Shown here: positions 6,554 to 61,006 of the stretch, in pieces
Position numbering within the stretch: position 1 is the first letter of the stretch
How the letters are laid out: each line of letters starts with the position of its first letter
DNA from: Acidobacteriota bacterium
Lineage (GTDB): Bacteria; Acidobacteriota; UBA6911; RPQK01; CBDDCF01
Assembly (NCBI GenBank): GCA_965225995.1
Contig: CBDDCF010000028.1
Location: 144,983 to 208,982 of the forward strand
Direction: 5' to 3'
DNA length: 64,000 nt
The notes under the pieces: model-generated
What the model was told of the DNA's origin: nothing
Databases searched by the model: none
What the model saw: the letters and a program-made list of their open reading frames with translations, nothing else
Translations under genes and position numbers: made by a program

Positions 6554-7702
6554 TCATATCGCACCCGGATCCCCCTCCACAATGCGTCGGAATCCGGCCG
6601 GATCAGTGTCTCCTTCGGTGTTGATGACCAGGACCTCAGAGTGGTCATTGATCTCCAGGTATTTCAAATCGGCGCCAAGCGCGGGATTCGACAGCAGAGC
6701 CAGTAGTCCGGCGAGGCCAGCAGCGCCTGTTTCGCCGGCCACAATTCGGGCATCACTCCCCCGCGGGCGATAGAGTCGGCGCACGGCATCCTCGGCGTAC
6801 TGATCCTCCACGGCCAGGAACAGATCGATCCCGACTCGCAAAATCGGCCAGGCCTCCAACGAAGGGAACGAACAATTGAGCCCCGCCATGATCGAATGGA
6901 TGGATCCGGACGCTCGTTGGGGTGATCCGTCCCTGGATCGGATCGAACTTAACAGGCAATCAGCTTCCACTGGTTCGACACAAATGAAGTGGGGCTGTGA
7001 AGACCAGGACTTCATGACCCGTAGGGCTGTGGACGCCAGTCCCCCTACACCACCCTGCAGAAAAACGTGGCTGGGGAGCGAAATGCGAGCTTGTTCCAGC
7101 TCTTCTCGGATCTCTTCAAAGAGTGTGCAGTAGCCGGTCGTGATCCAGGTGGATATCCGCTCATAACCCGGATATGCGTTGTCAGAGAGAACTGCCCAGC
7201 CATTCTTGCGGCTGACTTTTTCGGCCTCCGCTACCGCCTGGTCGTAGTGGCCGCTCACGGCCCTGACTTCCGCCCCTTCGTCTGCAATCGCCTGTCGGCG
7301 TGCCGAGACCATGTCATCGGGAACAAAAACTACTGCTCGATGTCCCAGCTGTCGTGTTGCCCAAGCAACTGCCCGGCCGTGATTTCCGTCAGTGGCAGTG
7401 GCAAAGGTAATCGGAGCCGTTCCGGGTGGGTGGGTTTCCAGGAAGCGGGCCAGCCCATAAGCGGCGCCCAGGACCTTGAAGGCTTTTAGACCGAGCCGCT
7501 GGGACTCGTCTTTGACCAGAATCCGTCCCAAACCCAAACCTGCGGCCAACTCAGGAAGATCGTGCAATGGGGTGGGCTTGTACCCCGCCAGAGTCCGATG
7601 AAATCTGCGCACCTCTTGGATCACTTCCTGCGAGAGGGCCGGAACTCGAGCTGGTTCCAGGAATCGATTTTGCGTGGACCGGGCGGTACTGATTTCATCC
7701 AT
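6554..7702 (-). CDS. PLP-dependent fold-type II enzyme, diaminopropionate ammonia-lyase-like
   Basis: KDESQRLGLKAFKVLGA (PLP-lysine region) and the ATDGNHGRAVA glycine-rich loop. Size (382 aa) fits DAPAL/threonine-dehydratase-like enzymes. Confidence 0.55.
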   Translation of the reverse strand: MDEISTARSTQNRFLEPARVPALSQEVIQEVRRFHRTLAGYKPTPLHDLPELAAGLGLGRILVKDESQRLGLKAFKVLGAAYGLARFLETHPPGTAPITFATATDGNHGRAVAWATRQLGHRAVVFVPDDMVSARRQAIADEGAEVRAVSGHYDQAVAEAEKVSRKNGWAVLSDNAYPGYERISTWITTGYCTLFEEIREELEQARISLPSHVFLQGGVGGLASTALRVMKSWSSQPHFICVEPVEADCLLSSIRSRDGSPQRASGSIHSIMAGLNCSFPSLEAWPILRVGIDLFLAVEDQYAEDAVRRLYRPRGSDARIVAGETGAAGLAGLLALLSNPALGADLKYLEINDHSEVLVINTEGDTDPAGFRRIVEGDPGAI

Positions 7703-18636: not shown

Positions 18637-18811
18637 TGGGCCGACACTCCTCACCTAATCGCGGCAACATCCTTCTACCAACACAACATGTCCAATTCAA
18701 GTACCCGTTTGGCATTTGTCAGGGGCCACCCAAAAGCGGCCAGTGAGGGCCACTTCAAAACCGGCCATTCTCAGGAGCCATTGAGAGCTGCATCCCTCGT
18801 AGGATGCGCCG

Positions 18812-20308
18812 ATGGTCAATGTACTGAAAATGGAGAAGAAACAAACGGTTGTGGCGCTATTGAAGCTGGGCTGGTCGTATCGGCGGATCGAGCGAGAAAC
18901 AGGAGTTCGTCGAGAGACTGTAGCCCGACATGATCCGTCCCGAGATTCAAAACCGGCCAAAGTGGCCCCCGGCTCGGGTGAGCAGAAGCGGCCAAAGCGG
19001 CCCCCGGGTCGGCGCAGCTCGTGTGAGCCTTTTCGGGAGGAAATCCAGAAGAAGCTTGAGCTGGGGTTGCATGCCAAGCGGATCTGGCAAGACCTGGTTT
19101 TGGAGCATGGCTTCGATGGAGCGTATAACTCCGTCAAACGGTTTTGCAGAAAGCTCAAAGCCGAGAGTCCACGAGTCTTCGCTCGGGTGGAAACTCCACC
19201 CGGTCGGGACATGCAGGTGGACTTTGGCAAAGCAGCTCTGACACAAACCGAATCGGGCCGGTACCGTCGCCCCCACCTGTTCAAGGCAGTGCTGTGTTAT
19301 TCCCGCCACTCGTATGAGGAGGTCGTCTGGCGGCAGGATCTGGAGACCTTCGTCCGTTGTGTCGAGAATGCCTTCCACTGGTTTGGTGGCTCGGTAGACG
19401 TGGTTCGCTTGGATAACCTGAAGGCCGGAGTCACGCGAGCCTGCTTTGTCGATCCCGAGATCAACGCCGTTTTCAGTGCGCTGGGCCGTCACTATAGTTT
19501 TGCCATCATTCCCATCCATCCTGGCTCTCCAAATGAGAATGGAAAAGTCGAAAGGACGATCGGATATACAAAGTCCAGTGCCCTGAAGGGCAGACGGTTC
19601 GAGAGTCTGGCCGAGCAGAATGAGCATCTACGGAACTGGAACGAGCGGGTCGCCCGACAGCGCATCCACGGCACCACCAAACAGCAGGTCTGGCCCCGAT
19701 TCCTGGAGGAACAGAAGGGTCTTCGACCTCTACCCGACTCCCGCTTCAGTTTCTTCCGTACCGGCCGTCGCACGGTCTCCGTGGATGGCCACATCGAAGT
19801 CGATCGAGCCTTCTACTCGGTACCCAATCATCTGCTTGGCTGTGAAGTGGCTGTGCACTGGGATGACCGGATCGTCCGAGTCTTTTTCCGAGAGCAGCAA
19901 GTCGTCCTGCATCCCAAGCGGAAACCCGGCCAGTTCCAGACCGAACCCACACATCTTCCGGAACGCAAACGCTACGCTCATTATCGAACTGAGAGTCAGC
20001 TGCTCGGGCAAGCCCGCAGGATTGGCTCTGATGCTCACCGCTGGGCAGTGCGAGCCCTGGAGGTGCGCGACGTGTTGGCCTACCGGCTCCTGAGAGGCAT
20101 GATCTCTTTGACCCGACGCTACCCGGCCACGGTCGTCAATGAAGCCTGTGCCAAGGCTCTCTCTCACGATGCCTTCCGCTATCGGACCCTGGTGGCTTTA
20201 TGCAAGCGACTAGACGTGCCGCAACGCTCTCTATTCACCTCCGACCACGAGTTGATTCGGCCGCTGTCTGAGTACCAACTCACTCCCCGCTCAGGAGACC
20301 CGGAATGA
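18812..20308 (+). CDS. istA: IS21-family transposase IstA
   Basis: 498 aa with an N-terminal HTH and a DDE integrase core. It is translationally coupled to istB by a 4-bp overlap. Confidence 0.9.
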   Translation: MVNVLKMEKKQTVVALLKLGWSYRRIERETGVRRETVARHDPSRDSKPAKVAPGSGEQKRPKRPPGRRSSCEPFREEIQKKLELGLHAKRIWQDLVLEHGFDGAYNSVKRFCRKLKAESPRVFARVETPPGRDMQVDFGKAALTQTESGRYRRPHLFKAVLCYSRHSYEEVVWRQDLETFVRCVENAFHWFGGSVDVVRLDNLKAGVTRACFVDPEINAVFSALGRHYSFAIIPIHPGSPNENGKVERTIGYTKSSALKGRRFESLAEQNEHLRNWNERVARQRIHGTTKQQVWPRFLEEQKGLRPLPDSRFSFFRTGRRTVSVDGHIEVDRAFYSVPNHLLGCEVAVHWDDRIVRVFFREQQVVLHPKRKPGQFQTEPTHLPERKRYAHYRTESQLLGQARRIGSDAHRWAVRALEVRDVLAYRLLRGMISLTRRYPATVVNEACAKALSHDAFRYRTLVALCKRLDVPQRSLFTSDHELIRPLSEYQLTPRSGDPE

Positions 20309-21078
20309 TCTCATTGGAAATGGAACGGAAACTTCGCCACCTCAGGCTCTCGGGCCTGGCCCAGGTCTTTGACGTACGGCTGCAACAAGCCATCCAGGGC
20401 CGTCTCTCTCATCAGGAGTTCTTTGAGCTGCTCATCGACGACGAACTCACCCGCCGGCGCGACCGTTTGCTGGAGCGATGTCTCCGCCAGGCCCAGTTCC
20501 CGGAACGCAAACTCTTGGAGGACTTCAGGTTCTCTTTCAACACCTCGATCAATCGGCAGCAGATCTTTGATCTGGCCACTTGCCGATTCATCGAACAGTG
20601 TCGCGGCTGGTTGGTCATCGGTCAGGCGGGAGTCGGCAAAACACATCTGATCATCACGGTGGCAATCAAGGCTGTGGAAGCGGGTCACCGGGTACAGTAC
20701 AAGTCGGCTTTCGATCTGCTCGAGGACATCGCTGAAGCCACTGCCACCGGGATGCGCCGACCCTACATTGCAGAGATGACCCGGATCCCGCTGCTGATCA
20801 TCGAGGATCTGGGACTTCGGAAAGTGCCCGACTCGGCGGCTGAAGATCTGCTGGAGATCCTGCATCGCCGCTACCAGAAGACCTCGACCATTATCAGTTC
20901 GAACCGACCACTCGAGGACTGGGGAGCGATGCTGGGAGGAGACACGGCGGCCACCTCTGCGCTGCTGGATCGTTTTCTACACGTTTCGGAGGTGACCTTC
21001 ATTCGAGGCAAGAGCTATCGCCTCTACGAACGTCAGCAACGGGAGAAGTCGACCAAGAAGCGAGGAGAAAAGAAATGA
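20305..21078 (+). CDS. istB: IS21-family helper ATPase IstB
   Basis: Walker A motif GQAGVGKTHL; AAA+ IstB family. Confidence 0.9.
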   Translation: MISLEMERKLRHLRLSGLAQVFDVRLQQAIQGRLSHQEFFELLIDDELTRRRDRLLERCLRQAQFPERKLLEDFRFSFNTSINRQQIFDLATCRFIEQCRGWLVIGQAGVGKTHLIITVAIKAVEAGHRVQYKSAFDLLEDIAEATATGMRRPYIAEMTRIPLLIIEDLGLRKVPDSAAEDLLEILHRRYQKTSTIISSNRPLEDWGAMLGGDTAATSALLDRFLHVSEVTFIRGKSYRLYERQQREKSTKKRGEKK

Positions 21079-21554
21079 TCCGGAACCGGAAAGCCGTGGA
21101 AACTGCCGGGCTGTCTACAGCAACATTCTGGACTTTCTTGTGCGAGTTCCCGACAACCTCACAATATCGCGTTACTCGATGCGCCAGTCTACAATTAGGT
21201 TGAACTTCTCATCGTGTTCGTCATGATCAGGAGCATGACCGCCACTTCCCGACGACAACGTTGCTACGACCACCGTCTCAAAGAACTCGTCCGAATAACT
21301 GGAGATCTCTCCCCGGCCCTTGAATTAGTTTTTGCGGACCACGCCCGTGCTGGAGCGCATTTTGGAACACATGAGTTTGTCTGGTTTTTCGTGGTATGCG
21401 AACCTCCGGCTTTGTATGTGACTGCTACGGAATTCTCACTGATTCAGGCATGCCACGCGTGGTGTTCAAAACTCAACCGAATCGCAACTGATTGAATTAA
21501 CTCTCCCACGCGCCCAACAACTTGAACATCCCGGTAGAATTGTCAAGCGTTTTT

Positions 21555-22745
21555 TCATGAGCGGATCTCGTAGTCGCGGTCCTCGGTGAGCATTTTCCAT
21601 AACACTCGAACCAGATGACGGGCCAGGGATCGGATAGCTTGGTTGTATCTTTTGCCTTCGGCTCTCTTCTTGGAGTAGTAGGTCTGTGACTGGGGAACCT
21701 CGCGCAGGTGCCGGGCCACAGCCGCCATCATGGCCTGGCGAGTTCGCTGGTTCACATGACGGGTGCGTCGAGCTCCCTCCGTCTGGGAGGAGGAGTTGTC
21801 CAAAGTGGCCATCCCCAGGTACATGGCCAGGCTCGCCTCGCCGGCGAAGCGCTCCAGTGTGCCGATCTCGCCTGCCAACTCTGCGCTGGAAATGATTCCG
21901 AAGCCAGGGATACTTCTGATCCTCTGAGCCATTGCGGAGCGCTGAGTCAGGTCCTCAATGGCATTATTCAACTGGGCGATCTGCTCGAGCAATTCCAGCA
22001 TGCGTCGGGCATCGTGGAGGATCATCTCCCCCACCCATTCGACTTCTGCGGAAAAGTGAGCCTCTTTCTGCCAGCTTTGGATGATGTCAGCATAAAAGGA
22101 ACCGATCCGTTTGATCTGCAATACACTGTGGCGGCGTAGCCGGCTGAGTTGTCGCAGGTCCTTTCGGGCCGTTAGGAAATTTAAAAACCAGCGGTTGTCG
22201 ACCGACCCGGTCAAGGCGCTCAACTCAGGACAGATCGCTTGCAGGTCGGCCAAGAGGCGATTTCCCAGACTTACCTTCTCATCCACCAGCTGCCTGCGCC
22301 TGCGCGTCAATCGTTTCAGTTGTTGGTTTTCTGCCGGAACCGGCTTGACCTCCTGGATCACGTTCTTGGCCCGCTTCAAAGTGTCGCCTAGCTGAAACAA
22401 TTCCAGCATTTTATCGGTGTCAATCTGATCGGTCTTGGCCGGAGCTGGAAAGATCTCTTTGAAGCGAGCCAGTTTCAGGTTGTTGACATTCAACAACTTG
22501 TAGCCGCGTTGCTGAATCTGCTGATCCAAGGGCCGGGCCCAGCCGTTGTAGCCTTCCATGGCCACTTCAACGGGCCGCTCCAAACGCTGGCGGTGGAGCT
22601 CCACGCGGCCAAAGAAATACTCGAAACCTTTCTGGTTGTGGGCAATACTGAACCCTTCCAGAACCTGGCCTTCCGACAAGCCAACTCCCACCCGGTGGCT
22701 CTTGCTGCCCACATCAATCGCCACTCGAATCGTTGGCTTTGTCAT
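21555..22745 (-). CDS. IS110-family transposase/recombinase (DEDD RuvC-like N-terminal domain plus a Transposase_20 C-terminal domain)
   Basis: IRVAIDVGSKSHRV..., AMEGYNGWARPL, and a C-terminal IPGFGIISSAELAGEIG...LGMATLDNSSSQ region. Confidence 0.9.
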   Translation of the reverse strand: MTKPTIRVAIDVGSKSHRVGVGLSEGQVLEGFSIAHNQKGFEYFFGRVELHRQRLERPVEVAMEGYNGWARPLDQQIQQRGYKLLNVNNLKLARFKEIFPAPAKTDQIDTDKMLELFQLGDTLKRAKNVIQEVKPVPAENQQLKRLTRRRRQLVDEKVSLGNRLLADLQAICPELSALTGSVDNRWFLNFLTARKDLRQLSRLRRHSVLQIKRIGSFYADIIQSWQKEAHFSAEVEWVGEMILHDARRMLELLEQIAQLNNAIEDLTQRSAMAQRIRSIPGFGIISSAELAGEIGTLERFAGEASLAMYLGMATLDNSSSQTEGARRTRHVNQRTRQAMMAAVARHLREVPQSQTYYSKKRAEGKRYNQAIRSLARHLVRVLWKMLTEDRDYEIRS

Positions 22746-23003
22746 TTGCCTCCCTTCCTATTTGCTCTTGAAAAATTCGGGCTCATCCAAAACAACACGT
22801 CTACCATTGAAGCCACTTCGGCACCATCCCGGAAGCAATCTTTGGATGAGGAAAAAGGAGGGAACGAGGCGGCAGTTCAAGTTGAGTCACTCCTCACGGA
22901 CTGACAGAGCAAGCCACACCTCATTCCCCGACTCCAGCTTAGTTGTTTTCCAAAGCGGAGCCAATCTTCATGTGGCCTGACACCCAATCCAACCATCCAA
23001 ACT
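22746..23003 (-). ncRNA. Candidate bridge-RNA-encoding non-coding end of the IS110-family element (upstream of the recombinase)
   Basis: 258-bp non-coding region with a perfect 10-bp long-range stem (ctcatccaaa 22777-22786 / tttggatgag 22836-22845) and further local hairpins. IS110/IS621-type elements encode their guide RNA in such a non-coding end. The 440-bp downstream end (21109-21554) is an alternative location. Confidence 0.25.
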
Positions 23004-23160
23004 GTGGAAACCGCCGCGCTGTGCAAAGCTAAGAGAAACCGACATGGCAGCAACTGACCCCCTCGCTCAGGAGTTTTCCCCCTCTTCACACAGCGCTTGG
23101 AAAACGGCTCGCGGGGCTCGCTCGTTTCCCACCGTTCCCACAGTTTCTGCTGCTGGATAT
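23004..23160 (+). repeat. Remnant of the IS21 copy-1 right arm (homologous to 29102-29245 of copy 2) lacking the terminal IR
   Basis: Shared blocks cgctRtg... and cacagcgcttggaaaacggctcgcggNgctcgctcgtttcccac...agtt. Copy 2's terminal IR (ggccggttttga...gtggcccccgaca) is absent here. Confidence 0.45.
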
Positions 23161-23399
23161 ATACTCTCTGAAAATTCCTTTTCTCTCGGAATGCTATGGT
23201 AGACAGTACCCTTGGCGCGCCTCGGCCTTTCTACGGGTCAGTGTTCCGCCAGGCCACGACTGCTTCTTCGTCGAACCAGAAGGTCAGCCGACCCCGGCCG
23301 ATCAGCTTTATTGTAGGCTGGCCAATTGCTGAACTCCATACCGGAAGGCGTGTTCATTCGGCGTGATTCCTCATCGCTGGCACCCTGACGGGTCAGAGA

Positions 23400-23560
23400 C
23401 AAGCCCACACGCCCGAAGCGATTTATTCAGCGCCGCGCTTTTCCTTTTTCAATTTTCGTTTTTCCTTTGGATTGAGCTTCGACTTTTTTTGTTGTTCCCT
23501 TTTTCCTTTGTCTTTTTTCCCCTGATCGCCCATTTCTATTTCTCCTTGCTTGAAAATGAC
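23400..23560. repeat. Polypyrimidine (T/C-rich) low-complexity tract in an otherwise GC-rich context
   Basis: ttttcctttttcaattttcgtttttcctttgg...ctttttttgttgttccctttttcctttgtcttttttcccc. It produces the Lys-rich tail of the dubious ORF 23427..23822(-). Confidence 0.5.
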
Positions 23561-23830
23561 TTGCGCCGGACCGTGGCGGCGAAGCTTTGTCTCCGATCGT
23601 ACACGTTAGCAGATGGAGTTCCCCCGGTGTTGGAATTTTGGGTTGGCCAAGCGAGTGGTTTCCGATCAGCTCGGAACCGAAGAGATAATTCACAAGTCTT
23701 ACCAAAGAGGGCTCCACTGCGGCGACGGCGGTTTGCATGTCTCTAGAGAGGCTGAAGGTAAGCCAGAAGACCGACGTACCGATATGTGGGCAATTTGGGC
23801 AGTGGTTCTGGGAGGTGCTCACGGGCAGTC

Positions 23831-25008
23831 TAGTGCACTGTCCGATAAGTTCCCGATGTTAATATTGGCCGAGCGATTCGCGGGCATTTTGGGCCTTTGC
23901 CAGGATTGAGTCAGCAGTGGCGCGCCACTTGAAGGGCTTGGCCAAGCGTTGATTGTGAACCCGAATATATCTTTTGATTTCCTGTCTCAACTCTTGGACG
24001 CTGCTGAAAGAGTTTCTGTAGATCGAACGGCGCTCCAGCTGTGAGAACCAGCTTTCGACGGCATTGAGCCAGGAGGCGCTAGTGGGCGTAAAGTGGAGGT
24101 GGTATCGGGGCCGCTGGGCCAGCCAGCTTTGAACCTGCTTGGTCTTATGAGTGCTCGAGTTGTCCAGGATTAAGTGGACATCCAGTTCGGGCTCGACCGC
24201 TTGATCAATCTGGCGGAGAAAAGCCAGGAACTCCTTGGCTCGGTGCCTATTGGTGATGCGGCCCATGACCTCACCTGTCACCACATCGAATGCGGCATAC
24301 AGACTGGCTGTACCGTGGCGCTTGTAATCGTGTGTCCGGCGTTGGATCTGTCCAGGTCTGAGCTGGAGCATCGGCTGAGTTCTATCCAGAGCCTGGATCT
24401 CAGTTTTCTCGTCCACGGATAGAACCAGCGCATTGTCGGGCGGATCCATATACAGCCCCACCACATCGATTACCTTTTCGGCGAAGTGAGGATCGTTGCT
24501 GATTTTAAAGTTACGGACTCGATGCAGCTTCAGGTCGGCTGCCTTCCAGATCTGGGCGACTTGATGCTTGCTCACTCCGGAGTGTTCGGCCATCAGTCGC
24601 ACACTCCAGTAGGTCGATTCCCGTGGGATGCGTTCAACGGTGGCTTTGAGAATAGCTCGCACATTGGCATGCGATAGCTTCCGCGGACGGCCCGATCGAG
24701 GTCGATCCTCCAGTCCTGACACTCCCTGCTCAAGATAGCGCCTGCGCCACATTTGCACACTCAGTAGCCGCTTGGAGAGCCTTTCCGCAACTTCAGTCGC
24801 CGTCAGCCCCTGGCCGCAAGCCAGAATTATTTGAGCCCGTTCGGCCAAGACTCGATCGGTCTTGGAAGCCCGCAACCAGGACTCCAGTATTCTTCGATCT
24901 TGTTCGGGTAGCTTTAGTCGAATGTGGGGTCTTGCCATGCCCAACAATAGCAAACTACCCCGACAATTAACATCGGAAACTTTCCGGACAGTACACTAGC
25001 TCTTCAAG
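23831..25008 (-). mobile_element. IS630-family element, copy A (about 1178 bp), with TA at both ends and 30+ bp TIRs
   Basis: TIRs TAgtgcactgtccgataagttcccgatgttaat ... attaacatcggaaactttccggacagtacacTA. Near-identical to copies B and C. Confidence 0.85.
23859..24953 (-). CDS. IS630-family DDE transposase
   Basis: 364 aa with N-terminal HTHs and a DDE triad region (LSVDEKTEIQ, ILDNSSTHK, WLNAVE). Confidence 0.9.
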   Translation of the reverse strand: MLLLGMARPHIRLKLPEQDRRILESWLRASKTDRVLAERAQIILACGQGLTATEVAERLSKRLLSVQMWRRRYLEQGVSGLEDRPRSGRPRKLSHANVRAILKATVERIPRESTYWSVRLMAEHSGVSKHQVAQIWKAADLKLHRVRNFKISNDPHFAEKVIDVVGLYMDPPDNALVLSVDEKTEIQALDRTQPMLQLRPGQIQRRTHDYKRHGTASLYAAFDVVTGEVMGRITNRHRAKEFLAFLRQIDQAVEPELDVHLILDNSSTHKTKQVQSWLAQRPRYHLHFTPTSASWLNAVESWFSQLERRSIYRNSFSSVQELRQEIKRYIRVHNQRLAKPFKWRATADSILAKAQNARESLGQY

Positions 25009-25350: not shown

Positions 25351-25435
25351 TCGTGATGGCTTGTCTTTTCTATTCAATGACTTACAGTGACCTTGTTTCC
25401 TGGTTTTTCGTGGTATTCGGGAATTTTTGTGGTAA

Positions 25436-25815: not shown

Positions 25816-26764
25816 TCACCGAAGGATATTCAGATTGAAAGCGTCAGCGATGATTTCAGGAAATGGCATCTTTCCCAGCCTGATCCAATCGAGCGCAAAG
25901 AATAGGCAGCAGAAAGCCGCACCGAATGCGACCTGGTCAACCCTCTCGACTGCGATCGACCTTGTATGGGACTGGTTGAAGAAAGTGGGCTGGGTCTCTC
26001 CATTTCTGTCAGCACAGGGAAGAACAACGACTCCCTCACCCGCAACTATCAAGTCCGGGAAGAGATGGATCGCAATGTCTGGAAAAGCCAGCTCTCTCAA
26101 GAGATCACTTACTGCGTCCGGTTGAAGCGCGCTACCGTCTTTCGTCTGCTTAACATACCTAGCCAAAATCACTCCATAGACTGGATTCCTAATCTCGTGT
26201 AGAGGAAGCGGAGAATCGGGAGACCGTTGAAGTCCATCACTCACGTAGGGATCGGGGCTGAGTATCTGTCTTGGCTTTCGCTTGCCAACAAGTTCCTTTA
26301 CTTTGGCAACTTGCCTGCACGCCTTTTCCAAGCTTGACTCGCCTGTGCACCCAGCGCCAAGCTGTGCTTGGATTCGATGTAGGCGAAGACTGCTTCAATA
26401 GGTGTGTTCTCTTTTCGTGAGTAGTCATCATTCGGTGTAAGGCGAAGGGTTGGAAACCGGTCCTGTGCAAAAATGATGTGTCGTCGCCAGCCTTGTTTCC
26501 ATCGGCATCAACTACGAAGCCCCTACAGATACCATACTTCTGGGGCAAAGCTTCTCGGAGGATATGACAAATGGCAATTTCAAACTCGGGCCCGTAATCG
26601 AATCCGTACTCAGCTTGAATCTGATCCAACTTCACGCAAAGCGTCGAGACAGGGTGGTCACATAGTCGTTGTACAGATGCTTCTTCGCCCTCACTGACCG
26701 TCTCCTGCTCTAAATCGCCGGCTGTCAGGGGCCACCCAAAAGCGGCCAGTGAGGGCCACTTCAA
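25816..26764 (-). pseudogene. Hypothetical gene disrupted by a frameshift (two ORFs overlap at 26237-26331) and truncated at its 5' end by IS21 copy 2
   Basis: ORFs 25816..26331 and 26237..26764 are in different frames. The N-terminus of the latter (MKWPSLAAFGWPLTAGD) is translated from the IS21 left IR. No family was recognised. Confidence 0.35.
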
Positions 26765-26817
26765 AACCGGCCATTTTCAGGAGCCATTGAGAGCTGCATC
26801 CCTCGTAGGATGCGCCG

Positions 26818-28314
26818 ATGGTCAATGTACTGAAAATGGAGAAGAAACAAACGGTTGTGGCGCTATTGAAGCTGGGCTGGTCGTATCGGCGGATCGAGCG
26901 AGAAACAGGAGTTCGTCGAGAGACTGTAGCCCGACATGATCCGTCCCGAGATTCAAAACCGGCCAAAGTGGCCCCCGGCTCGGGTGAGCAAAAGCGGCCA
27001 AAGCGGCCCCCGGGTCGGCGCAGCTCGTGTGAGCCTTTTCGGGAGGAAATCCAGAAGAAGCTTGAGCTGGGGTTGCATGCCAAGCGGATCTGGCAAGACC
27101 TGGTTTTGGAGCATGGCTTCGATGGAGCGTATAACTCCGTCAAACGGTTTTGCAGAAAGCTCAAAGCCGAGAGTCCACGAGTCTTCGCTCGGGTGGAAAC
27201 TCCACCCGGTCGGGACATGCAGGTGGACTTTGGCAAAGCAGCTCTGACACAAACCGAATCGGGCCGGTACCGTCGCCCCCACCTGTTCAAGGCAGTGCTG
27301 TGTTATTCCCGCCACTCGTATGAGGAGGTCGTCTGGCGGCAGGATCTGGAGACCTTCGTCCGTTGTGTCGAGAATGCCTTCCACTGGTTTGGTGGCTCGG
27401 TAGACGTGGTTCGCTTGGATAACCTGAAGGCCGGAGTCACGCGAGCCTGCTTTGTCGATCCCGAGATCAACGCCGTTTTCAGTGCGCTGGGCCGTCACTA
27501 TAGTTTTGCCATCATTCCCATCCATCCTGGCTCTCCAAATGAGAATGGAAAAGTCGAAAGGACGATCGGATATACAAAGTCCAGTGCCCTGAAGGGCAGA
27601 CGGTTCGAGAGTCTGGCCGAGCAGAATGAGCATCTACGGAACTGGAACGAGCGGGTCGCCCGACAGCGCATCCACGGCACCACCAAACAGCAGGTCTGGC
27701 CCCGATTCCTGGAGGAACAGAAGGGTCTTCGACCTCTACCCGACTCCCGCTTCAGTTTCTTCCGTACCGGCCGTCGCACGGTCTCCGTGGATGGCCACAT
27801 CGAAGTCGATCGAGCCTTCTACTCGGTACCCAATCATCTGCTTGGCTGTGAAGTGGCTGTGCACTGGGATGACCGGATCGTCCGAGTCTTTTTCCGAGAG
27901 CAGCAAGTCGTCCTGCATCCCAAGCGGAAACCCGGCCAGTTCCAGACCGAACCCACACATCTTCCGGAACGCAAACGCTACGCTCATTATCGAACTGAGA
28001 GTCAGCTGCTCGGGCAAGCCCGCAGGATTGGCTCTGATGCTCACCGCTGGGCAGTGCGAGCCCTGGAGGTGCGCGACGTGTTGGCCTACCGGCTCCTGAG
28101 AGGCATGATCTCTTTGACCCGACGCTACCCGGCCACGGTCGTCAATGAAGCCTGTGCCAAGGCTCTCTCTCACGATGCCTTCCGCTATCGGACCCTGGTG
28201 GCTTTATGCAAGCGACTAGACGTGCCGCAACGCTCTCTATTCACCTCCGACCACGAGTTGATTCGGCCGCTGTCTGAGTACCAACTCACTCCCAGCTCAG
28301 GAGACCCGGAATGA
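26818..28314 (+). CDS. istA: IS21-family transposase IstA (copy 2)
   Basis: Identical to the copy 1 protein except for R->S near the C-terminus. Confidence 0.9.
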   Translation: MVNVLKMEKKQTVVALLKLGWSYRRIERETGVRRETVARHDPSRDSKPAKVAPGSGEQKRPKRPPGRRSSCEPFREEIQKKLELGLHAKRIWQDLVLEHGFDGAYNSVKRFCRKLKAESPRVFARVETPPGRDMQVDFGKAALTQTESGRYRRPHLFKAVLCYSRHSYEEVVWRQDLETFVRCVENAFHWFGGSVDVVRLDNLKAGVTRACFVDPEINAVFSALGRHYSFAIIPIHPGSPNENGKVERTIGYTKSSALKGRRFESLAEQNEHLRNWNERVARQRIHGTTKQQVWPRFLEEQKGLRPLPDSRFSFFRTGRRTVSVDGHIEVDRAFYSVPNHLLGCEVAVHWDDRIVRVFFREQQVVLHPKRKPGQFQTEPTHLPERKRYAHYRTESQLLGQARRIGSDAHRWAVRALEVRDVLAYRLLRGMISLTRRYPATVVNEACAKALSHDAFRYRTLVALCKRLDVPQRSLFTSDHELIRPLSEYQLTPSSGDPE

Positions 28315-29084
28315 TCTCATTGGAACTGGAACGGAAACTTCGCCACCTCAGGCTCTCGGGCCTGGCCCAGGTCTTTGACGTACGGCTGCAACAAGCCATC
28401 CAGGGCCGTCTCTCTCATCAGGAGTTCTTTGAGCTGCTCATCGACGACGAACTCACCCGCCAGCGCGACCGTTTGCTGGAGCGATGTCTCCGCCAGGCCC
28501 AGTTCCCGGAACGCAAACTCTTGGAGGACTTCAGGTTCTCTTTCAACACCTCGATCAATCGGCAGCAGATCTTTGATCTGGCCACTTGCCGATTCATCGA
28601 ACAGTGTCGCGGCTGGTTGGTCATCGGTCAGGCGGGAGTCGGCAAAACACATCTGATCATCACGGTGGCAATCAAGGCTGTGGAAGCGGGTCACCGGGTA
28701 CAGTACAAGTCGGCTTTCGATCTGCTCGAGGACATCGCTGAAGCCACTGCCACCGGGATGTGCCGACCCTACATTGCAGAGATGACCCGGATCCCGCTGC
28801 TGATCATCGAGGATCTGGGACTTCGGAGAGTGCCCGACTCGGCGGCTGAAGATCTGCTGGAGATCCTGCATCGCCGCTACCAGAAGACCTCGACCATTAT
28901 CAGTTCGAACCGACCACTCGAGGACTGGGGAGCGATGCTGGGAGGAGACACGGCGGCCACCTCTGCGCTGCTGGATCGTTTTCTACACGTTTCGGAGGTG
29001 ACCTTCATTCGAGGCAAGAGCTATCGCCTCTACGAACGTCAGCAACGGGAGAAGTCGACCAAGAAGCGAGGAGAAAAGAAATGA
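28311..29084 (+). CDS. istB: IS21-family helper ATPase IstB (copy 2)
   Basis: Walker A motif GQAGVGKTHL. Four substitutions relative to copy 1. Confidence 0.9.
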   Translation: MISLELERKLRHLRLSGLAQVFDVRLQQAIQGRLSHQEFFELLIDDELTRQRDRLLERCLRQAQFPERKLLEDFRFSFNTSINRQQIFDLATCRFIEQCRGWLVIGQAGVGKTHLIITVAIKAVEAGHRVQYKSAFDLLEDIAEATATGMCRPYIAEMTRIPLLIIEDLGLRRVPDSAAEDLLEILHRRYQKTSTIISSNRPLEDWGAMLGGDTAATSALLDRFLHVSEVTFIRGKSYRLYERQQREKSTKKRGEKK

Positions 29085-29513
29085 TCCGGAACCGGAAAGC
29101 CGTGGAAACTGCCGCGCTATGGAAACCGTGGAGAACGGTCACATCGAGAAGCCGGCCCATGCATCGGTTCTTCCACCGTTCCCACAGCGCTTGGAAAACG
29201 GCTCGCGGTGCTCGCTCGTTTCCCACAGTTACGCACCGCTTCTGCTACTGGACATACCAACAAGAAAGAAGATTCCGGATCGACCAGCTTCGCGGTCCAA
29301 GAACCGGCCGAACCGGTCAACGAACGCCCTGCTCACGGGCTCACAGCAAACCCGCCCCGACCAGCAGGCCGTACAGCCTCCTCACGGAGGCCTTCACAAG
29401 GATTGAAATGTGTTCAAGGCGAGGATATAACTACTAGATCACTGGCCGGTTTTGACCCGGCCCTGAGTGGCCGCTTTTGATGTGGCCCCCGACACCGGAT
29501 CCAAAAATATCCT

Positions 29514-32710: not shown

Positions 32711-32866
32711 CTCCCAAGTTATTCAAAGGCTGCGTCCAGCACTTCTTCGACAGATTCCACCAACACGAAACTCATCTGTTCAACGACAATTATTTTTGAT
32801 CACCGCGACTACGATTCTTGCCCGCTGAAGTGGGTGTTTGTTTGACTTGTTTTTCTTCCTTCTTCT

Positions 32867-32893
32867 GAGGGCTGAAAGCCCTCTTTTCTTCTC
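32867..32893 (+). terminator. Rho-independent terminator-like hairpin (gagggc-tgaaa-gccctc followed by ttttcttctc) inside the right end of IS21 #2
   Basis: Perfect 6-bp GC-rich stem with a 5-nt loop and a T-rich tail on the plus strand. An A-rich tract on the other side could allow bidirectional function. Confidence 0.45.
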
Positions 32894-33063
32894 CGGTTTT
32901 CTTGAGCGTGGGGATGGAGTGAGGGCTTGCCAGAACGGAGTTCCCACGCTTCGCGAGGCTCGGGATTGCCCTTCGAATGCTCCGCTGATTGAGCTGTATA
33001 CCCTCTGGGCTTGAGCCGTTTTCTGTGTGGCCAGCAGAAGGCCTTTCGAGCGGCACCTCAGAG

Positions 33064-33828
33064 TCACTTCGTCTCCTTTTGGGTTCTCTGCTTGGCGGCT
33101 TCCATCCGGTAGCTGGTCACGTTCAACTCCAGGATCACGCTATGGTGAACCAGGCGGTCGATTGCCGCGGCCGTGGTCAGGGGATCCTTGAAGATCCTCT
33201 CCCAGTCCGAGAAGACCAGGTTGCTGGTCAGCAGAATCGAGCGACGCTCGTAGCGATGGGAGAGCAACGTGAAGAGAATCTCCATCTCGTCGCGATTCTG
33301 CTGTACATACCCGATGTCGTCGATGATCAGGGCCTCGAACCGATCCAGCTTCTTGAGTTCCCTCTCCAGAGTTAGCTCGAGCTTGGCTCTCAGTAACCGC
33401 TGCACCAGCAGCGCACAGGTCGAGAACAGCACCCGCCGGTCTCGCAGGATCAACTCCTGCCCCAAAGCACAAACAAGATGCGTTTTCCCGCTTCCTGGAT
33501 TACCGAACACAAGTAGATTTTCGGCTCGGTCCAGGAAGTCTCCCTCCACCAATCCTGACAACTGCCGGTCCACACTCTGCGGGAGTCGTGAGCGATCCAA
33601 TGAAGTCAGGCTCTTGTCCCAGGGAAGTTTCGAGGTCCGTCGTAGTTTCTGGATCCGTCGTTCCCGTCGATCCGCGACTTCCAGCTCCGACAGAGCCAGC
33701 AGGTACTGCGGATAAGACCAGCTCTCTGTGGTCGCCAAAGCGGCCTGCGAGCCGTGATGCTCGCGGAAGGTCGGCAGGCGAAGTTCGACCAAACACTCTT
33801 TGAGTCTTTGCAGGTTGCCTCCGCTCAT
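33064..33828 (-). CDS. istB: IS21-family IstB-like ATPase (element #2)
   Basis: Walker A motif VFGNPGSGKTHLVCALG. A different sequence from copies 1 and 2. Confidence 0.85.
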   Translation of the reverse strand: MSGGNLQRLKECLVELRLPTFREHHGSQAALATTESWSYPQYLLALSELEVADRRERRIQKLRRTSKLPWDKSLTSLDRSRLPQSVDRQLSGLVEGDFLDRAENLLVFGNPGSGKTHLVCALGQELILRDRRVLFSTCALLVQRLLRAKLELTLERELKKLDRFEALIIDDIGYVQQNRDEMEILFTLLSHRYERRSILLTSNLVFSDWERIFKDPLTTAAAIDRLVHHSVILELNVTSYRMEAAKQRTQKETK

Positions 33829-33937
33829 GGCCTCACCTCCTGCTTGTGCGTGCCGAGCAATCGGTCATAGATCTGGATGTTGATTGGTGGAACCTGGACC
33901 TGCCACCTCGGCAGAACCGACTCTATCAGATCCTACT

Positions 33938-35312
33938 TCAGGTCCTGGAACCGGGTTCGGCGGCCGCTTTCAATCCGGTTCTTCAGAGCTTGTTCGACTT
34001 TCCTTTCCCCTTCTTGGGCCGCCAGCTCCAGGATCCCCAGATACTGTCGGTCCGCCGTCTGTGGACAATCCTCTCTCAGCTCGTCGGAGGCGACTCGGAA
34101 CAGGACTCCGGGAAAGCGATCTTCCCGCTAGCGATAGCGGGCAAAGGCTCCCGGCTTTCGCACCAGCGAGTGGATCACGTGCCGGTAATCGATCCGGTGC
34201 TTTCCTTCCCCCCGCAGTCGAGGCATCTCGGCTACTCGCTGCCCGCCATAACGAACTTCCACATGATCGGCATACAGTCGCGCCTCCACCTGTTCGCGGA
34301 TCAAGCGGCTGTCCACCGAGTAGGTGTTGTTGCGCACTCGGATCGTGGAACTGGTTGCGACCTTCACTCGGAATCGGATGAAGTCCTCCAGGCGACGATC
34401 CGGTAGCGGCCTCATCACTTCCAGTTCTTCTCGCAGGCGTCTTTGCCGGCCAGCATTGCGTCGCTCGATGATTCTCTGGACGAACTGCTCGTAGTCCTTG
34501 CGCTCTGAGAAATCGCGACTGCCTCTGAGCAGCAGTTCCTGTTGGATGGCTCGCTTGAGCCGGTGATGCGATTGCTCGACGTCTCCGTTCTCATGAGCCT
34601 TTCCGGCTTGGGTTCGGCGGCGCTTCATTCCGTAATGATCGAGCAATGTCTGGTAGCGTTCGGTGAAGGCGCCCTTCTTGAGATTGTTGACCACAGCCGA
34701 TAGACGGTCTGTTCGGTGCTCGGATGGTATCGCCCCCAGTTCCCAGATCGCGTTCTGTAGTCCCAGCGTCAAACTCTCGAAAGATTCACCGAAGCACAGG
34801 GTCGTCGTCTCCCAGTTCGAGTAGGTCAAGACGAAGTGATACAGCATATGAGGAAAGGGTTGCCCGGCAATCGTCACTCCCCAGCTGTTCATGAAAGTGA
34901 AGTCGGACTGGGCTTGATGTCCGGGCTCATGATTCTGGGGAAACATCACCTCTTTCAGCTCACCGTAGTGGGCTCTCCACTGCTTGCGCCTTCGTTGGAG
35001 CGTCCTCAGTTGTCCTTCCTCGAACTTCCCCTCGTAGATCCGATTCAGGTGGTCAAAAATAGTTGTCGCCTCCACGGTTGGAGACTGTTTCAGGATCCCT
35101 TCTATTTCGGGCCAAACGGATTCATAGGGATTCGGGCGGGTGCGCCAGGTCCGCTCTGACCGGCTTTCACTCGGCAGCTTGCCCGACTTCAAATACTTCC
35201 GTGCCGGGTTCCGCGACATGCCCGCTTTGGCCGCCGCCATCGTCAACGTCTTTTCCTTTTTCCGCAATTTCATCAGTCTCCTGATCTGCTGGTCTGTAAC
35301 CATGCTTGCCAT
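33938..35312 (-). pseudogene. istA: IS21-family IstA-like transposase (element #2) with an in-frame TAG at 34128-34130
   Basis: The listed ORF 34128..35312 ends ...GAFARYR*. The same frame continues REDRFPGVLFRVASDELREDCPQTADRQYLGILELAAQEGERKVEQALKNRIESGRPEPGSRT* to 33938. Confidence 0.7.
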
Positions 35313-35344
35313 GATCCAAATCAGCTCTGAAAAAGCGGGCAGTT

Positions 35345-60757: not shown

Positions 60758-60775
60758 TCGGGATCTCCGGAGAAG

Positions 60776-60903
60776 CAGGCAAGATACCTGCGCTACTTGG
60801 CAGGCAAGATGCCTGTGCTACTTGGGCAGGCAAGATGCCTGCGCTACTTGGACAGGCAAGATGCCTGCGCTACTTGGCAGGCAAAATGCCTGCGTTACTT
60901 GGT
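60776..60903. repeat. Tandem array of about 5 x 25-26-bp units (caggcaagatgcctgcgctacttgg), each containing a 5-bp-stem hairpin, 19 bp upstream of the beta-propeller gene start
   Basis: Five head-to-tail copies with 1-3 substitutions each and no spacers. Each unit carries caggc-aagat-gcctg. Confidence 0.7.
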
Positions 60904-61006
60904 GGTTCCTCTTTTCAGGCGAACCGCTCCTCCATCTGTTCCAAATTGACGGATGAAACTCTTGCCGAAGGCCTTGGAGTGCGGAGTGCAGCTCCGCCTT
61001 GTGCAC

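What the first reader, a model, noticed from the sequence alone, without database searches (positions are those of the whole stretch)
21096..23160. IS110-family element nested precisely in the right arm of an IS21 copy, with a 13-bp junction repeat and a candidate bridge-RNA end
IS21 copy 1 is co-linear with intact copy 2 up to ...gccgtggaaactgccg (21108), then breaks. The copy-2-like sequence resumes at 23004 with gtggaaaccgccgcgctgtg (copy 2 reads gtggaaactgccgcgctatgg). The intervening 1.9 kb encodes an IS110-family DEDD/serine recombinase, has no terminal inverted repeats, and has long non-coding ends of 258 bp upstream and 440 bp downstream. IS110-family elements are known to target other IS ends or REP sequences and to encode a structured guide (bridge) RNA in a non-coding end. 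The 13-bp direct repeat at both junctions (one mismatch) is unusually long for this family and may reflect the donor/target core. The upstream end contains a perfect 10-bp long-range stem (22777-22786 / 22836-22845).
Basis: partly seen in the sequence, partly recalled or inferred. Interest (0 to 1): 0.75.

Follow-up and report, generated by a model that had tools for sequence, protein, structure and literature searches.

The report
Bridge-RNA IS110 element beside broken IS21
This is an ordinary-type IS110 insertion sequence with a well-supported bridge (guide) RNA, but it is not nested inside the IS21 copy: the "junction repeat" is part of a folded 150-base module that this IS110 lineage and IS21 elements both carry.

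Summary
An intact IS110-group element lies on the minus strand. Its true limits are 21526-23201 (1,676 bp), not 21109-23003. Fourteen related copies with unrelated flanks fix these limits: two same-species copies, four in an Acidobacteriota genome bin (MAG), and eight at 66-73% protein identity. A 2-bp core (TC) flanks both ends. The left end (LE) is 456 bp and the right end (RE) 29 bp.

A two-loop bridge RNA lies at 22773-22942(-). A covariance model built only from distant relatives finds it (E~4e-11), and it is the only hit in the window. Its stems covary. Its loop guides match the element's own ends and covary with the flanks across lineages.

It belongs to a ~150-nt Y-shaped hairpin module (22999-23146). 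Every IS110 relative at ≥66% identity has the module; relatives at ≤59% lack it. The module is homologous to a piece of the right arm of IS21-family elements.

IS21 copy 1 simply stops at ~21112, inside its own copy of the module. It never resumes and has no right inverted repeat. The 411 bp at 21113-21523 do not belong to the IS110 element.

Verdict: a known kind of element with a conserved extra LE module. The nesting and junction-repeat claims are wrong.

The parts
21526..23201 (-). Complete IS110-group insertion sequence (1,676 bp): LE 456 bp, transposase gene, RE 29 bp
   Evidence: Homology to same-species copy L045 spans exactly 23206-21518. The same limits hold for L034, four MAG copies, and the 73% and 66-68% relatives. 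Flanks are unrelated in every case.
23202..23203 (-). Core dinucleotide TC (GA on + strand) at the LE junction
   Evidence: The left junction reads LT-TC-TACCAT in all copies.
21524..21525 (-). Core dinucleotide TC (GA on + strand) at the RE junction
   Evidence: The right junction reads ...CCGGGATG(T)-TC-RT in all copies.
21555..22745 (-). IS110-family recombinase gene, 396 aa
   Evidence: Pfam DEDD_Tnp_IS110 7e-21 and Transposase_20 2e-14. NCBIfam 'IS110 family RNA-guided transposase' 167.8 bits against a cutoff of 140. Distant match to the IS621 transposase structure 8wt6, E 2e-5.
21526..21554 (-). Right end (29 bp) holding a -35 box TTGACA (21541-21546) and the left-donor sequence CCGGGATG (21527-21534)
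   Evidence: On the joined RE-TC-LE circle the sequence reads TTGACA-17 nt-TACCAT. This is a consensus match only.
23196..23201 (-). LE terminus TACCAT: right-donor sequence and candidate -10 box of the circle-junction promoter
   Evidence: Conserved as TACCAT in all relatives.
22773..22942 (-). Bridge RNA core: target-binding domain (stem 22919-22929 / 22860-22869) and donor-binding domain (stem 22841-22850 / 22782-22791)
   Evidence: Model R2, built without this lineage, gives 51.9 bits, E 3.6e-11, and this is the only hit in the window. Stems are 96% paired and 16 pairs show double changes; slid controls give about 40% paired.
22903..22910 (-). Left target guide GCUCUGUC (same sense as left flank plus core)
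   Evidence: It covaries with the flanks: L002 8/8, L003 8/8, L035 9/9, L016 9/9, L018 9/9, L045 7/8. The window copy's own flank GTACTGTC matches 6/8.
22877..22886 (-). Right target guide CUCAACUUGA (antisense to core plus right flank)
   Evidence: Window flank TC-AAGTTG matches 8/8 and L045 TC-AAGTTGAG 10/10. The 73% lineage has GAGCGGAA with flanks TC-CGCTC. L014 has GACTTGA with TC-AAGTC.
22825..22832 (-). Left donor guide CCGGGAUG, identical to the RE terminus
   Evidence: the same 8-mer occurs at 21527-21534. Invariant in all relatives.
22800..22807 (-). Right donor guide AUGGUAGA, reverse complement of TC+TACCAT (core plus LE terminus)
22999..23146 (-). Y-shaped hairpin module inside the LE (outer stem plus two hairpins).
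   Evidence: Present in all copies at ≥66% aa identity and absent at ≤59%. 17-31-nt blocks are invariant between elements whose genes are about 72% identical at the nucleotide level. Fold z-scores are -3.5 to -12.4, and 34 consensus pairs include 6 compensatory ones.
23204..23211 (-). Left target flank (GGGTACTG in element orientation)
21516..21523 (-). Right target flank (AAGTTGTT in element orientation)
18717..21112 (+). IS21-family copy 1, truncated 13-17 nt into its right-arm module. It has no right inverted repeat.
   Evidence: 99.7% identical to copy 2 (26723-29118), then the similarity breaks.
21113..21523 (.). 411 bp of unknown origin between the truncated IS21 and the IS110 right end. 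It belongs to neither element.
   Evidence: No similarity to any IS110 copy, any IS21 arm or any fetched locus. No bridge-RNA motifs or model hit. No Pfam hit for its ORF.
29100..29263 (+). The same module in the right arm of intact IS21 copy 2
   Evidence: Sister-genome IS21 copy L048 lacks exactly these 164 bp, which are bounded by a GAAAG repeat.
33114..33118 (.). Empty insertion site (TGG-TC) that is occupied by a 99%-identical IS110 copy in a sister genome. It lies in the 3' end of istB of a second IS21-family element.
   Evidence: L034 flanks map to 32776-33118 and 33114-35385.

Best explanation
The locus holds a complete, probably active IS110-group insertion sequence on the minus strand (21526-23201).

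Proposed mechanism, by analogy with IS621:
- The element excises as a circle.
- Joining RE to LE through the TC core assembles a promoter (TTGACA in the RE, 17 nt, TACCAT in the LE).
- That promoter transcribes the LE, which encodes a two-loop bridge RNA.
- The donor loop pairs with the element's own RE-TC-LE junction (CCGGGAUG and AUGGUAGA).
- The target loop pairs with a genomic site of the form GCTCTG-TC-AAGTTGAG.
- The DEDD/serine recombinase exchanges strands at TC, which leaves TC on both sides and no inverted repeats.

What is shown: the element ends, the core, the RNA's conserved structure, and the guide/flank and guide/end complementarity with covariation.

What is inferred: transcription, circle formation and catalysis.

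Between the LE terminus and the bridge RNA this lineage carries a ~150-nt Y-shaped hairpin module that is also a standard part of IS21-family right arms. It is seen once in IS21 copy 1, which is broken off at that point, and once inside the IS110 left end. The IS110 is inserted in unrelated DNA 411 bp away from the broken IS21, not in it.
For: Element ends:
- Same-species copy L045 matches window 23206-21518 exactly and nothing beyond.
- L034 shows the same ends, and the window holds its empty site.
- Four MAG copies agree, as do four 73% copies and four 66-68% copies at distinct sites plus two near-duplicate contigs.

Family.

Bridge RNA:
- Independent model R2 hits 22773-22942(-) at E 3.6e-11 and nowhere else in the window.
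- 96% of cells are paired, and 16 pairs have double changes against 1-6 in slid controls.

Guides:
- The table, together, shows three different right-guide/right-flank pairs (AAGTTG, CGCTC, AGGCT/AAGTC).
- Left guide and left flank are identical over 8-9 nt in L002, L003, L016, L018 and L035.
- The strand logic matches Durrant et al. 2024: the left guide has the same sense as the flank and the right guide is antisense (PMC11208160).
- The donor guides match the RE and LE termini.

Promoter: the junction spacing is 17 nt, and no sigma-70-like site was found in the integrated region.

Module:
- It sits inside the LE of every close relative.
- It is present in IS21 relatives L031 and L028 and in sister-genome IS21 copies.
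Against: - There are no expression or activity data.
- The window copy's left flank matches its own left guide at only 6 of 8 positions. It matches the guide of MAG copy L003 8 of 8.
- The left donor guide departs from the RE sequence at the position just before the core (GGUG against GTTC).
- In distant relatives the right donor guide pairs with only 5-6 nt of the LE terminus.
- The nucleotide just 5' of the core at the RE junction is T in most copies but G in L034, so the exact exchange points are not fixed by sequence alone.
- Model E-values are rough by design.
- The promoter is only a consensus match.
- Why IS21 copy 1 breaks inside its module, and where the 411 bp come from, remains unexplained.
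Confidence: 0.9

Rival explanations
1. A 1.9-kb IS110 element (21109-23003) is nested precisely in the right arm of IS21 copy 1. It duplicated or shares a 13-bp junction sequence, has a 258-bp upstream end and a 446-bp downstream end, and its guide RNA recognises the IS21 arm.
For: - The 13-mers are real, at 12/13 identity.
- Sequence after 23004 resembles the IS21 copy 2 arm.
- IS110-family elements are known to target the ends of other mobile elements (references cited in PMC11208160).
- A sister-genome copy does sit in an IS21-family element.
Against: - Every other copy carries 23004-23201 as part of its own left end in non-IS21 contexts, and none carries 21113-21523.
- The 'resumed' IS21 sequence is 85.7% identical against 99.7% for the rest, stops at 23161, and no right inverted repeat follows.
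- The target guides specify GCTCTG-TC-AAGTTGAG, not GTGGAAACYGCCG.
- The real flanks of the window copy fit those guides.
Confidence: 0.02
2. An IS1111-type architecture: the guide RNA is encoded downstream of the gene, in 21109-21554, and the upstream structure is incidental.
Against: - The real RE is 29 bp.
- 21113-21523 is absent from all other copies.
- That stretch has no bridge-RNA motifs and no model hit.
- The LE RNA has covarying stems and guides.
Confidence: 0.01
3. The module in the IS110 left end is a neutral passenger: a scrap of IS21 picked up once and carried along. It has no role in IS110 biology, and its similarity to IS21 arms is plain common descent.
For: - IS110 loci are reported to grow by adding foreign DNA (bioRxiv 10.64898/2026.08.14.744561).
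- Relatives at ≤59% identity work with a ~250-bp LE without the module.
- Copy L034 tolerates a further 597-bp insertion next to it.
- An IS21 copy lacking the module exists.
Against: - Blocks of 17, 19 and 30-31 nt in the module arms are invariant between IS110 elements whose genes are ~72% identical at the nucleotide level, whereas the loops are free to vary.
- The Y-shaped fold is kept through compensatory changes.
- The fold is 9-30 kcal/mol more stable on the IS110-transcript strand in all eight modules tested, because of G-U pairs. This points to selection on an RNA or single strand.
Confidence: 0.3

Closest known systems
IS621 (E. coli) and other IS110-group bridge-RNA elements (Durrant et al. 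2024, PMC11208160; Hiraizumi et al. 2024, PMC11208158)
   Same: - DEDD plus serine-domain recombinase.
- Long LE and short RE, no inverted repeats, and a 2-bp core on both sides.
- An LE-encoded RNA with a target-binding and a donor-binding internal loop.
- The left guides have the same sense as the DNA and the right guides are antisense.
- A -35 box in the RE and a -10 box in the LE across the circle junction.
   Different: - The protein is only distantly related (phmmer E 2e-5 over the C-terminal domain). The best plasmid-borne relatives are <28% identical.
- The core is TC rather than CT.
- The LE is 456 bp, with a conserved ~150-nt Y-shaped module between the junction promoter and the bridge RNA.
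- Nothing has been tested experimentally.
[quoted passage not shown]
   Same: IS110-family elements that insert site-specifically into another mobile element. Here one sister-genome copy lies in an IS21-family istB 3' end, and the 66% relatives all lie beside an IS240/IS6-type transposase fragment.
   Different: - The element here is IS110-group (long LE, 29-bp RE, RNA in the LE).
- It does not target an inverted repeat.
- The window copy is not inside IS21.
REP-targeting IS110 members of Pseudomonas putida: ISPpu9 (PMC12288879) and ISPpu10 (bioRxiv 10.64898/2026.03.19.712850)
   Same: Insertion into repeated, partly palindromic intergenic sequences. The 73% relatives L035-L038 sit in a repeated sequence family, and the window target lies between CGCGCCAA and TTGGGCGCG.
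   Different: No evidence here for an accompanying small RNA gene downstream of the transposase or for segmental amplification.
Expanded, cargo-bearing IS110 loci (Hu et al. 2026 preprint, bioRxiv 10.64898/2026.08.14.744561)
   Same: Foreign DNA becomes part of an IS110 element.
   Different: - The addition here is 150-215 nt and non-coding.
- It lies inside the LE upstream of the bridge RNA.
- It is old (shared by relatives down to 66% identity) and its sequence is constrained. It is not recent plasmid or resistance cargo.

Membership tests
IS110 family (transposase) | N-terminal DEDD (RuvC-like) domain and C-terminal Transposase_20 domain | tested here: met
   PF01548 7e-21 over residues 8-173 and PF02371 2e-14 over residues 273-357. 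NCBIfam NF033542 scores 167.8 bits, above its cutoff of 140.
IS110 family (element) | No terminal inverted repeats, and no target duplication beyond a short core found at both junctions | tested here: met
   The junctions read LT-TC-TACCAT... and ...CCGGGATGT-TC-RT in 15 copies. The ends are not inverted repeats of each other.
IS110 group (as opposed to IS1111 group) | Long LE upstream of the gene, short RE, and the guide RNA in the LE | tested here: met
   The LE is 456 bp and the RE 29 bp. The RNA model hit lies at 22773-22942 in the LE.
IS1111 group | Long RE carrying the guide RNA, and sub-terminal inverted repeats of 7-17 bp | tested here: not met
   The RE is 29 bp. The 411 bp beyond it are absent from all other copies. 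No long sub-terminal inverted repeat was seen at the ends. The published IS1111 RNA models were not available to run.
Bridge RNA | Two stem-enclosed internal loops conserved across relatives, with covariation | tested here: met
   Of 33 pairs, 96% of cells are paired and 16 pairs have changes on both sides; slid controls give 36-49% paired. The independent model gives E 3.6e-11.
Bridge RNA | The target loop holds a left guide equal to left flank plus core and a right guide complementary to core plus right flank, and both change together with the flanks | tested here: met
   Examples: L003 GTACTGTC = flank; L035 GCTGTTGTC = flank; right guide/flank pairs AAGTTG, CGCTC, AGGCT and AAGTC.
Bridge RNA | The donor loop holds guides that match the RE terminus and the LE terminus | tested here: met
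   CCGGGAUG equals RE 21527-21534, and AUGGUAGA is the reverse complement of TC+TACCAT. The match is imperfect next to the core, and there is no covariation because both sides are invariant.
Bridge RNA | The RNA is expressed, binds the recombinase and directs recombination | not testable with these tools
   No transcript or activity data are available.
Rfam families | A match to any curated RNA family in 20500-23800 | tested here: not met
   Only chance-level hits, with E ≥1.3 and scores far below the gathering thresholds.
   Only 23004-23020 and 23073-23161 are similar, at 85.7%. There is no right inverted repeat.
   The copy at 23004-23016 lies 185 bp inside the LE and is invariant in copies located elsewhere.

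The most novel reading that the evidence does not exclude
The ~150-nt Y-shaped module may be a functional RNA domain rather than junk. It would be transcribed as a 5' extension of the bridge-RNA transcript in this IS110 subclade. The same domain is kept in the right arms of IS21-family elements, on the strand antisense to istB.

The two families appear to exchange it by gene conversion. In the window IS110, one hairpin (hairpin a) is identical to the IS21-type sequence and unlike that of other IS110 copies.

Such a shared module could regulate or process the guide RNA. It also gives the two IS families a patch of homology through which they could recombine, which might explain why IS21 copy 1 is broken inside its module, next to an IS110.
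Probability: 0.2. Interest if true: 0.6.

Novelty: new variant of a known kind. Interest (0 to 1): 0.4.

Why it matters
The core result is corrective. Without comparison to other copies, a stretch of homology between two insertion sequences was read as an insertion junction, and that gave wrong ends, a wrong core and a wrong predicted target.

With the right ends, the element becomes a clean natural example of bridge-RNA logic in a little-studied clade. Members occur in Acidobacteriota, Binatia, nitrifier and deltaproteobacterial genome bins. The example offers a TC core, several natural guide/target pairs, one occupied/empty site pair, and one apparent poorly matched insertion.

The part that could matter beyond cataloguing is the conserved structured module between the junction promoter and the bridge RNA, which is shared with IS21 arms. 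If it affects guide-RNA production or stability, it is relevant to engineering bridge recombinases. If the two IS families really exchange it, that is an unusual case of sequence traffic between unrelated transposon families.

Tried and rejected
- **Rfam scan** of 20500-23800 at E≤10 gave only chance hits.
- **Exact-sequence look-ups** of the window's IS110 protein, IstB, the TonB-receptor ORF and P0001 found nothing on record. The homologous locus in the sister genome could therefore not be fetched.
- **The 411-bp stretch (21113-21523)** was tested as several things:
  - an IS110 end: no homology to any copy;
  - a second bridge-RNA gene: no motifs and no model hits;
  - a diverged IS21 arm or IS110 LE: local alignment no better than shuffles;
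  - coding sequence: no ORF spans the junction when the flanks are rejoined, and there are no Pfam hits.
- **Core and RE terminus.** I first took GTTCAAGTT as the RE terminus and TT as the core. The covariation of the right guide with the flanks in other lineages showed that the RE ends at ...GGGATGT and the core is TC.
- **RNAalifold on the first alignment** mispaired the donor domain, so I supplied the structure by hand and checked it by counts and by a model.
- **Unoccupied target sites** in the window: no match at ≤2 mismatches, and matches at 3 mismatches are no more frequent than chance.
- **A sigma-70 promoter** inside the integrated LE or module was not found.
- **The 19-mer metagenome scan** also returned hits that look like chance or coding matches (L025, L027, L032), which I ignored.
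- **A dinucleotide-shuffle script** timed out. The module z-scores use mononucleotide shuffles.
Full report
**What is at the coordinates**

- The minus strand carries a 396-aa ORF at 21555-22745.
- It has both IS110-family domains: DEDD_Tnp_IS110 at 7e-21 and Transposase_20 at 2e-14.
- It passes NCBI's curated model 'IS110 family RNA-guided transposase' at 167.8 bits, above the 140-bit cutoff.
- It is a distant relative of the structurally solved IS621 transposase, with E 2e-5 over the C-terminal domain. Plasmid-borne IS110 genes are <28% identical.
- To its left lies IS21-family copy 1: istA at 18812-20308 and istB at 20305-21078.
- A self-comparison of the window shows copy 1 (18717-21112) to be 99.7% identical to copy 2 (26723-29118).
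- Copy 2 is complete. It spans TGTCAGG...CCGACA at 26723-29494, has 50-bp imperfect inverted repeats and is flanked by a CCGG duplication.
- The 10-bp stem is also real but sits at 22782-22791 / 22841-22850, five bases from the stated positions.

**Why the nested-insertion reading fails**

After 23003, the only stretches that resemble copy 2 are 23004-23020 and 23073-23161. They are 85.7% identical, against 99.7% for the rest of the IS. Similarity ends at 23161, and the window holds no second IS21 right inverted repeat.

The decisive test is comparison with other copies of the IS110 element. Every comparison gives the same limits, at the TC core (see 'Exact ends and core' below):

| Copies | Relation to window copy | Result |
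|---|---|---|
| L001, L002, L015, L003 (one Acidobacteriota MAG) | 86% nt | Share sequence with the window from about 23210 to 21517; flanks differ from each other beyond those points |
| L045 (7.44-Mb assembly of the same or a sister species) | 99% aa | Matches window 23206-21518 and nothing else nearby |
| L034 (same assembly) | 99% aa | Same ends; its two flanks map to window 32776-33118 and 33114-35385, so the window carries that insertion site empty |
| L035-L038 | 73% aa | Same limits |
| L039-L044 (six contigs; L042 and L041 share their left flank with L039) | 66-68% aa | Same limits |

So 23004-23201 belongs to the IS110 left end. 21113-21523 does not belong to the element: no other copy and no fetched locus contains it.

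**Exact ends and core**

Across all lineages:
- the left junction reads [flank]-TC-TACCAT...;
- the right junction reads ...CCGGGATG(T)-TC-[flank].

In window coordinates:
- the element is 21526-23201 (1,676 bp);
- the core TC (GA on the plus strand) is at 21524-21525 and 23202-23203;
- the LE is 456 bp and the RE 29 bp.

This is the IS110-group layout described by Durrant et al. 2024 (PMC11208160), not the IS1111 layout.

One detail is unsettled. The base just before the core at the right junction is T in most copies but G in L034, where the target also has G. Sequence alone therefore does not fix the exact exchange points.

**The bridge RNA**

Relatives at 54-59% protein identity have a ~250-bp LE whose last ~180 nt are strongly conserved.

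- I aligned them and wrote a two-domain structure by hand.
- On a model-based alignment of 19 distinct sequences, 96% of cells are paired and 16 of 33 pairs show changes on both sides. When the 3' partners are slid by 1-3 columns, only 36-49% are paired and 1-6 pairs show such changes.
- A second model, built only from the ≤59% relatives, excludes the window and its close kin. It finds window 22773-22942(-) at 51.9 bits, E about 4e-11. That is the only hit in the 64-kb window, and every module-bearing relative is hit at the equivalent place. E-values from these models are rough by design.
- The single-sequence fold shows the same two domains, but is not significant on its own (z -1.5).

**Guides**

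The strand logic follows the published rule: left guides have the same sense as the DNA, and right guides are antisense.

Target domain:
- The 5' side of the loop carries GCUCUGUC (22903-22910).
- The 3' side carries CUCAACUUGA (22877-22886).
- Together they predict the target GCTCTG-TC-AAGTTGAG.
- L045 sits in GTTCTG-TC-AAGTTGAG. The window copy sits in GTACTG-TC-AAGTTGTT.

Guides and flanks change together in other lineages:

| Copy or lineage | Guide | Flank |
|---|---|---|
| L003 | left guide GTACTGTC | GTACTGTC |
| L002 | left guide GCTTTGTC | GCTTTGTC |
| L035 | left guide GCTGTTGTC | GCTGTTGTC |
| L016, L018 | left guide | 9/9 match |
| 73% lineage (L036-L038) | right guide GAGCGGAA | TC-CGCTC |
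| L014 | right guide GACTTGA | TC-AAGTC |
| L005, L008, L016, L020 | right guide | TC-AGGCT |

Donor domain:
- CCGGGAUG (22825-22832) is identical to the RE terminus (21527-21534).
- AUGGUAGA (22800-22807) is the reverse complement of TC+TACCAT.

Weak points:
- The window copy's own left guide fits its flank at only 6 of 8 positions. That flank fits the L003-type guide perfectly, which suggests either later mutation of the guide or insertion directed by another copy's RNA.
- The left donor guide deviates from the RE next to the core.

None of the guides resembles GTGGAAACYGCCG. The window holds no further good target site.

**Promoter**

- Joining RE to LE through one core gives TTGACA-17 nt-TACCAT.
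- The relatives have the same arrangement, with TTGAAA as the -35 box.
- The scan found no sigma-70-like promoter in the integrated region 21050-23400 on either strand.
- This fits expression from the excised circle, as in IS621. It remains a consensus argument only.

**What the 13-mer really is**

The distance from the LE terminus to the target domain is:
- 61-65 nt in the ≤59% relatives;
- 263-285 nt in the window, MAG and 66-68% lineages. The 73% lineage has an LE of the same overall length, about 450 bp.

The extra DNA centres on a ~150-nt unit at 22999-23146.

- Each version folds into an outer stem plus two hairpins. Eight versions were tested, with z from -3.5 to -12.4 against mononucleotide shuffles.
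- RNAalifold on 11 versions gives 34 consensus pairs. Six are compensatory and many are conserved G-U pairs.
- In all eight versions the fold is 9-30 kcal/mol more stable on the strand transcribed with the IS110 LE than on its complement.
- Blocks of 17, 19 and 30-31 nt in the arms are invariant between IS110 elements whose genes are about 72% identical at the nucleotide level, while the loops vary.

The same unit sits 16-21 nt after the istB stop codon in several IS21-family elements:
- IS21 copy 2 (29100-29263);
- an 80%-identical IS21 relative (L031);
- an IS21 remnant (L028);
- in variant form, L026, L030 and L033;
- full-length IS21 copies of the sister genome.

It also occurs once on a short contig (L029) with no IS21 gene in view.

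One sister-genome IS21 copy (L048) lacks exactly these 164 bp. The gap is bounded by a 5-bp GAAAG repeat, and the simplest reading is a slippage deletion across the hairpin.

In the window IS110, one of the two hairpins, labelled hairpin a (GGAAAACGGCTCGCGGGGCTCGCTCGTTTCCC), is identical to that of IS21 relative L031 and unlike that of other IS110 copies. The neighbouring arms are of the IS110 type. This mosaic suggests gene conversion between IS21 and IS110 modules.

**What remains unexplained**

- IS21 copy 1 stops 13-17 nt into its own module, at 21108-21112.
- The next bases read GGGCTG-TC-TAC. They share the 8-mer CTGTCTAC with the IS110 left junction.
- The following 411 bp match nothing I could fetch. 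They have no bridge-RNA features.
- Possible causes are a hairpin-associated deletion, a recombinase-mediated rearrangement at a half-matching site, or coincidence. I cannot choose between them, and I could not retrieve the syntenic region from a sister genome.

**Comparison with known systems, and verdict**

In mechanism and architecture this is an IS110-group bridge-RNA element of the IS621 kind. All defining features that can be tested by sequence are met.

It differs from IS621 in four ways:
- it belongs to a distant clade;
- its core is TC;
- it has a 456-bp LE;
- it carries a conserved structured module shared with IS21-family arms.

It is not an IS1111-type element, and it is not nested in IS21.

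I rate it a new variant of a known kind, of moderate interest. The interest rests on the module and on the clean natural guide/target series.

Noticed in passing
window 33064-35312 (minus strand); empty site at 33114-33118: A second, different IS21-family element (istB about 33064-33828, istA about 34128-35312). In a sister genome (L034) a 99%-identical IS110 copy is inserted 51 nt before the istB stop. That site (GCTGG-TC-ACGTTC) fits the guides poorly, so it looks like an off-target or half-match insertion.
   Followed up: partly
L034 2207-2803: The sister-genome IS110 copy carries a nested ~597-bp insertion. It encodes a 125-aa Y1_Tnp (IS200/IS605-type) protein and has hairpin ends. It sits between the module and the bridge RNA, at the position of window 22942/22943.
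   Followed up: partly
window 23830-24999, 51551-52720, 61006-62175: Three 99%-identical copies of a 1,170-bp IS630-family element (DDE_3, NCBIfam IS630). The first is inverted relative to the other two. The region 18.7-29.5 kb is an IS graveyard.
   Followed up: partly
L048 7278-7282 (sister genome); L047 about 7511-7521: IS21 copies of the sister genome differ by clean deletions in the right arm. L048 lacks the whole 164-bp module, with a GAAAG repeat at the borders. L047 lacks 38 bp further on.
   Followed up: yes
L039-L042, positions 575-1026: The four places returned for the 66% IS110 relative lie about 50 bp downstream of a 138-150-aa IS240/IS6-type transposase fragment. Two of them (L039, L042) have the same gene on the far side as well and may be one locus assembled from two samples. 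This lineage appears to target another insertion sequence.
   Followed up: no
L035-L038, flanks at about 1550 and 3232: The four 73% relatives are inserted in members of a repeated sequence family. Their right flanks read TCCGCTCTCTCCTCGGAACTTGGCCTCAT..., and their left flanks fall into two similar pairs.
   Followed up: no
window 21109-21122: The first bases after the IS21 copy 1 break read GGCTG-TC-TACAGCA. They share the 8-mer CTGTCTAC with the IS110 left junction (CTG-TC-TACCAT). A second similar motif, CAG-TC-TACAAT, lies at 21185-21195.
   Followed up: partly
window 21381-21397 and 25400-25416: An exact 17-nt repeat (CTGGTTTTTCGTGGTAT) links the unexplained 411-bp stretch with the region between the IS630 copy and IS21 copy 2. 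BLAST gives E 0.005 within the window.
   Followed up: no
window 60775-60902: A short tandem-like repeat (units of about 51 nt, 92% identical) just upstream of the third IS630 copy. It appeared in the self-comparison.
   Followed up: no
L001 and L002, 4260-4778: Two MAG IS110 copies have different left flanks, but their right flanks are similar though diverged for about 500 bp beyond the RE. They may be paralogous targets or a partial duplication.
   Followed up: no
L015 3617-4873: One MAG IS110 copy has a ~1.26-kb insertion inside the transposase gene, presumably another mobile element.
   Followed up: no
window 23204-23240 and 21500-21523: The window IS110 target lies between the inverted sequences CGCGCCAA and TTGGGCGCG. 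The insertion site is therefore in the loop of a small palindrome, as is often seen for REP-targeting IS110 members.
   Followed up: no
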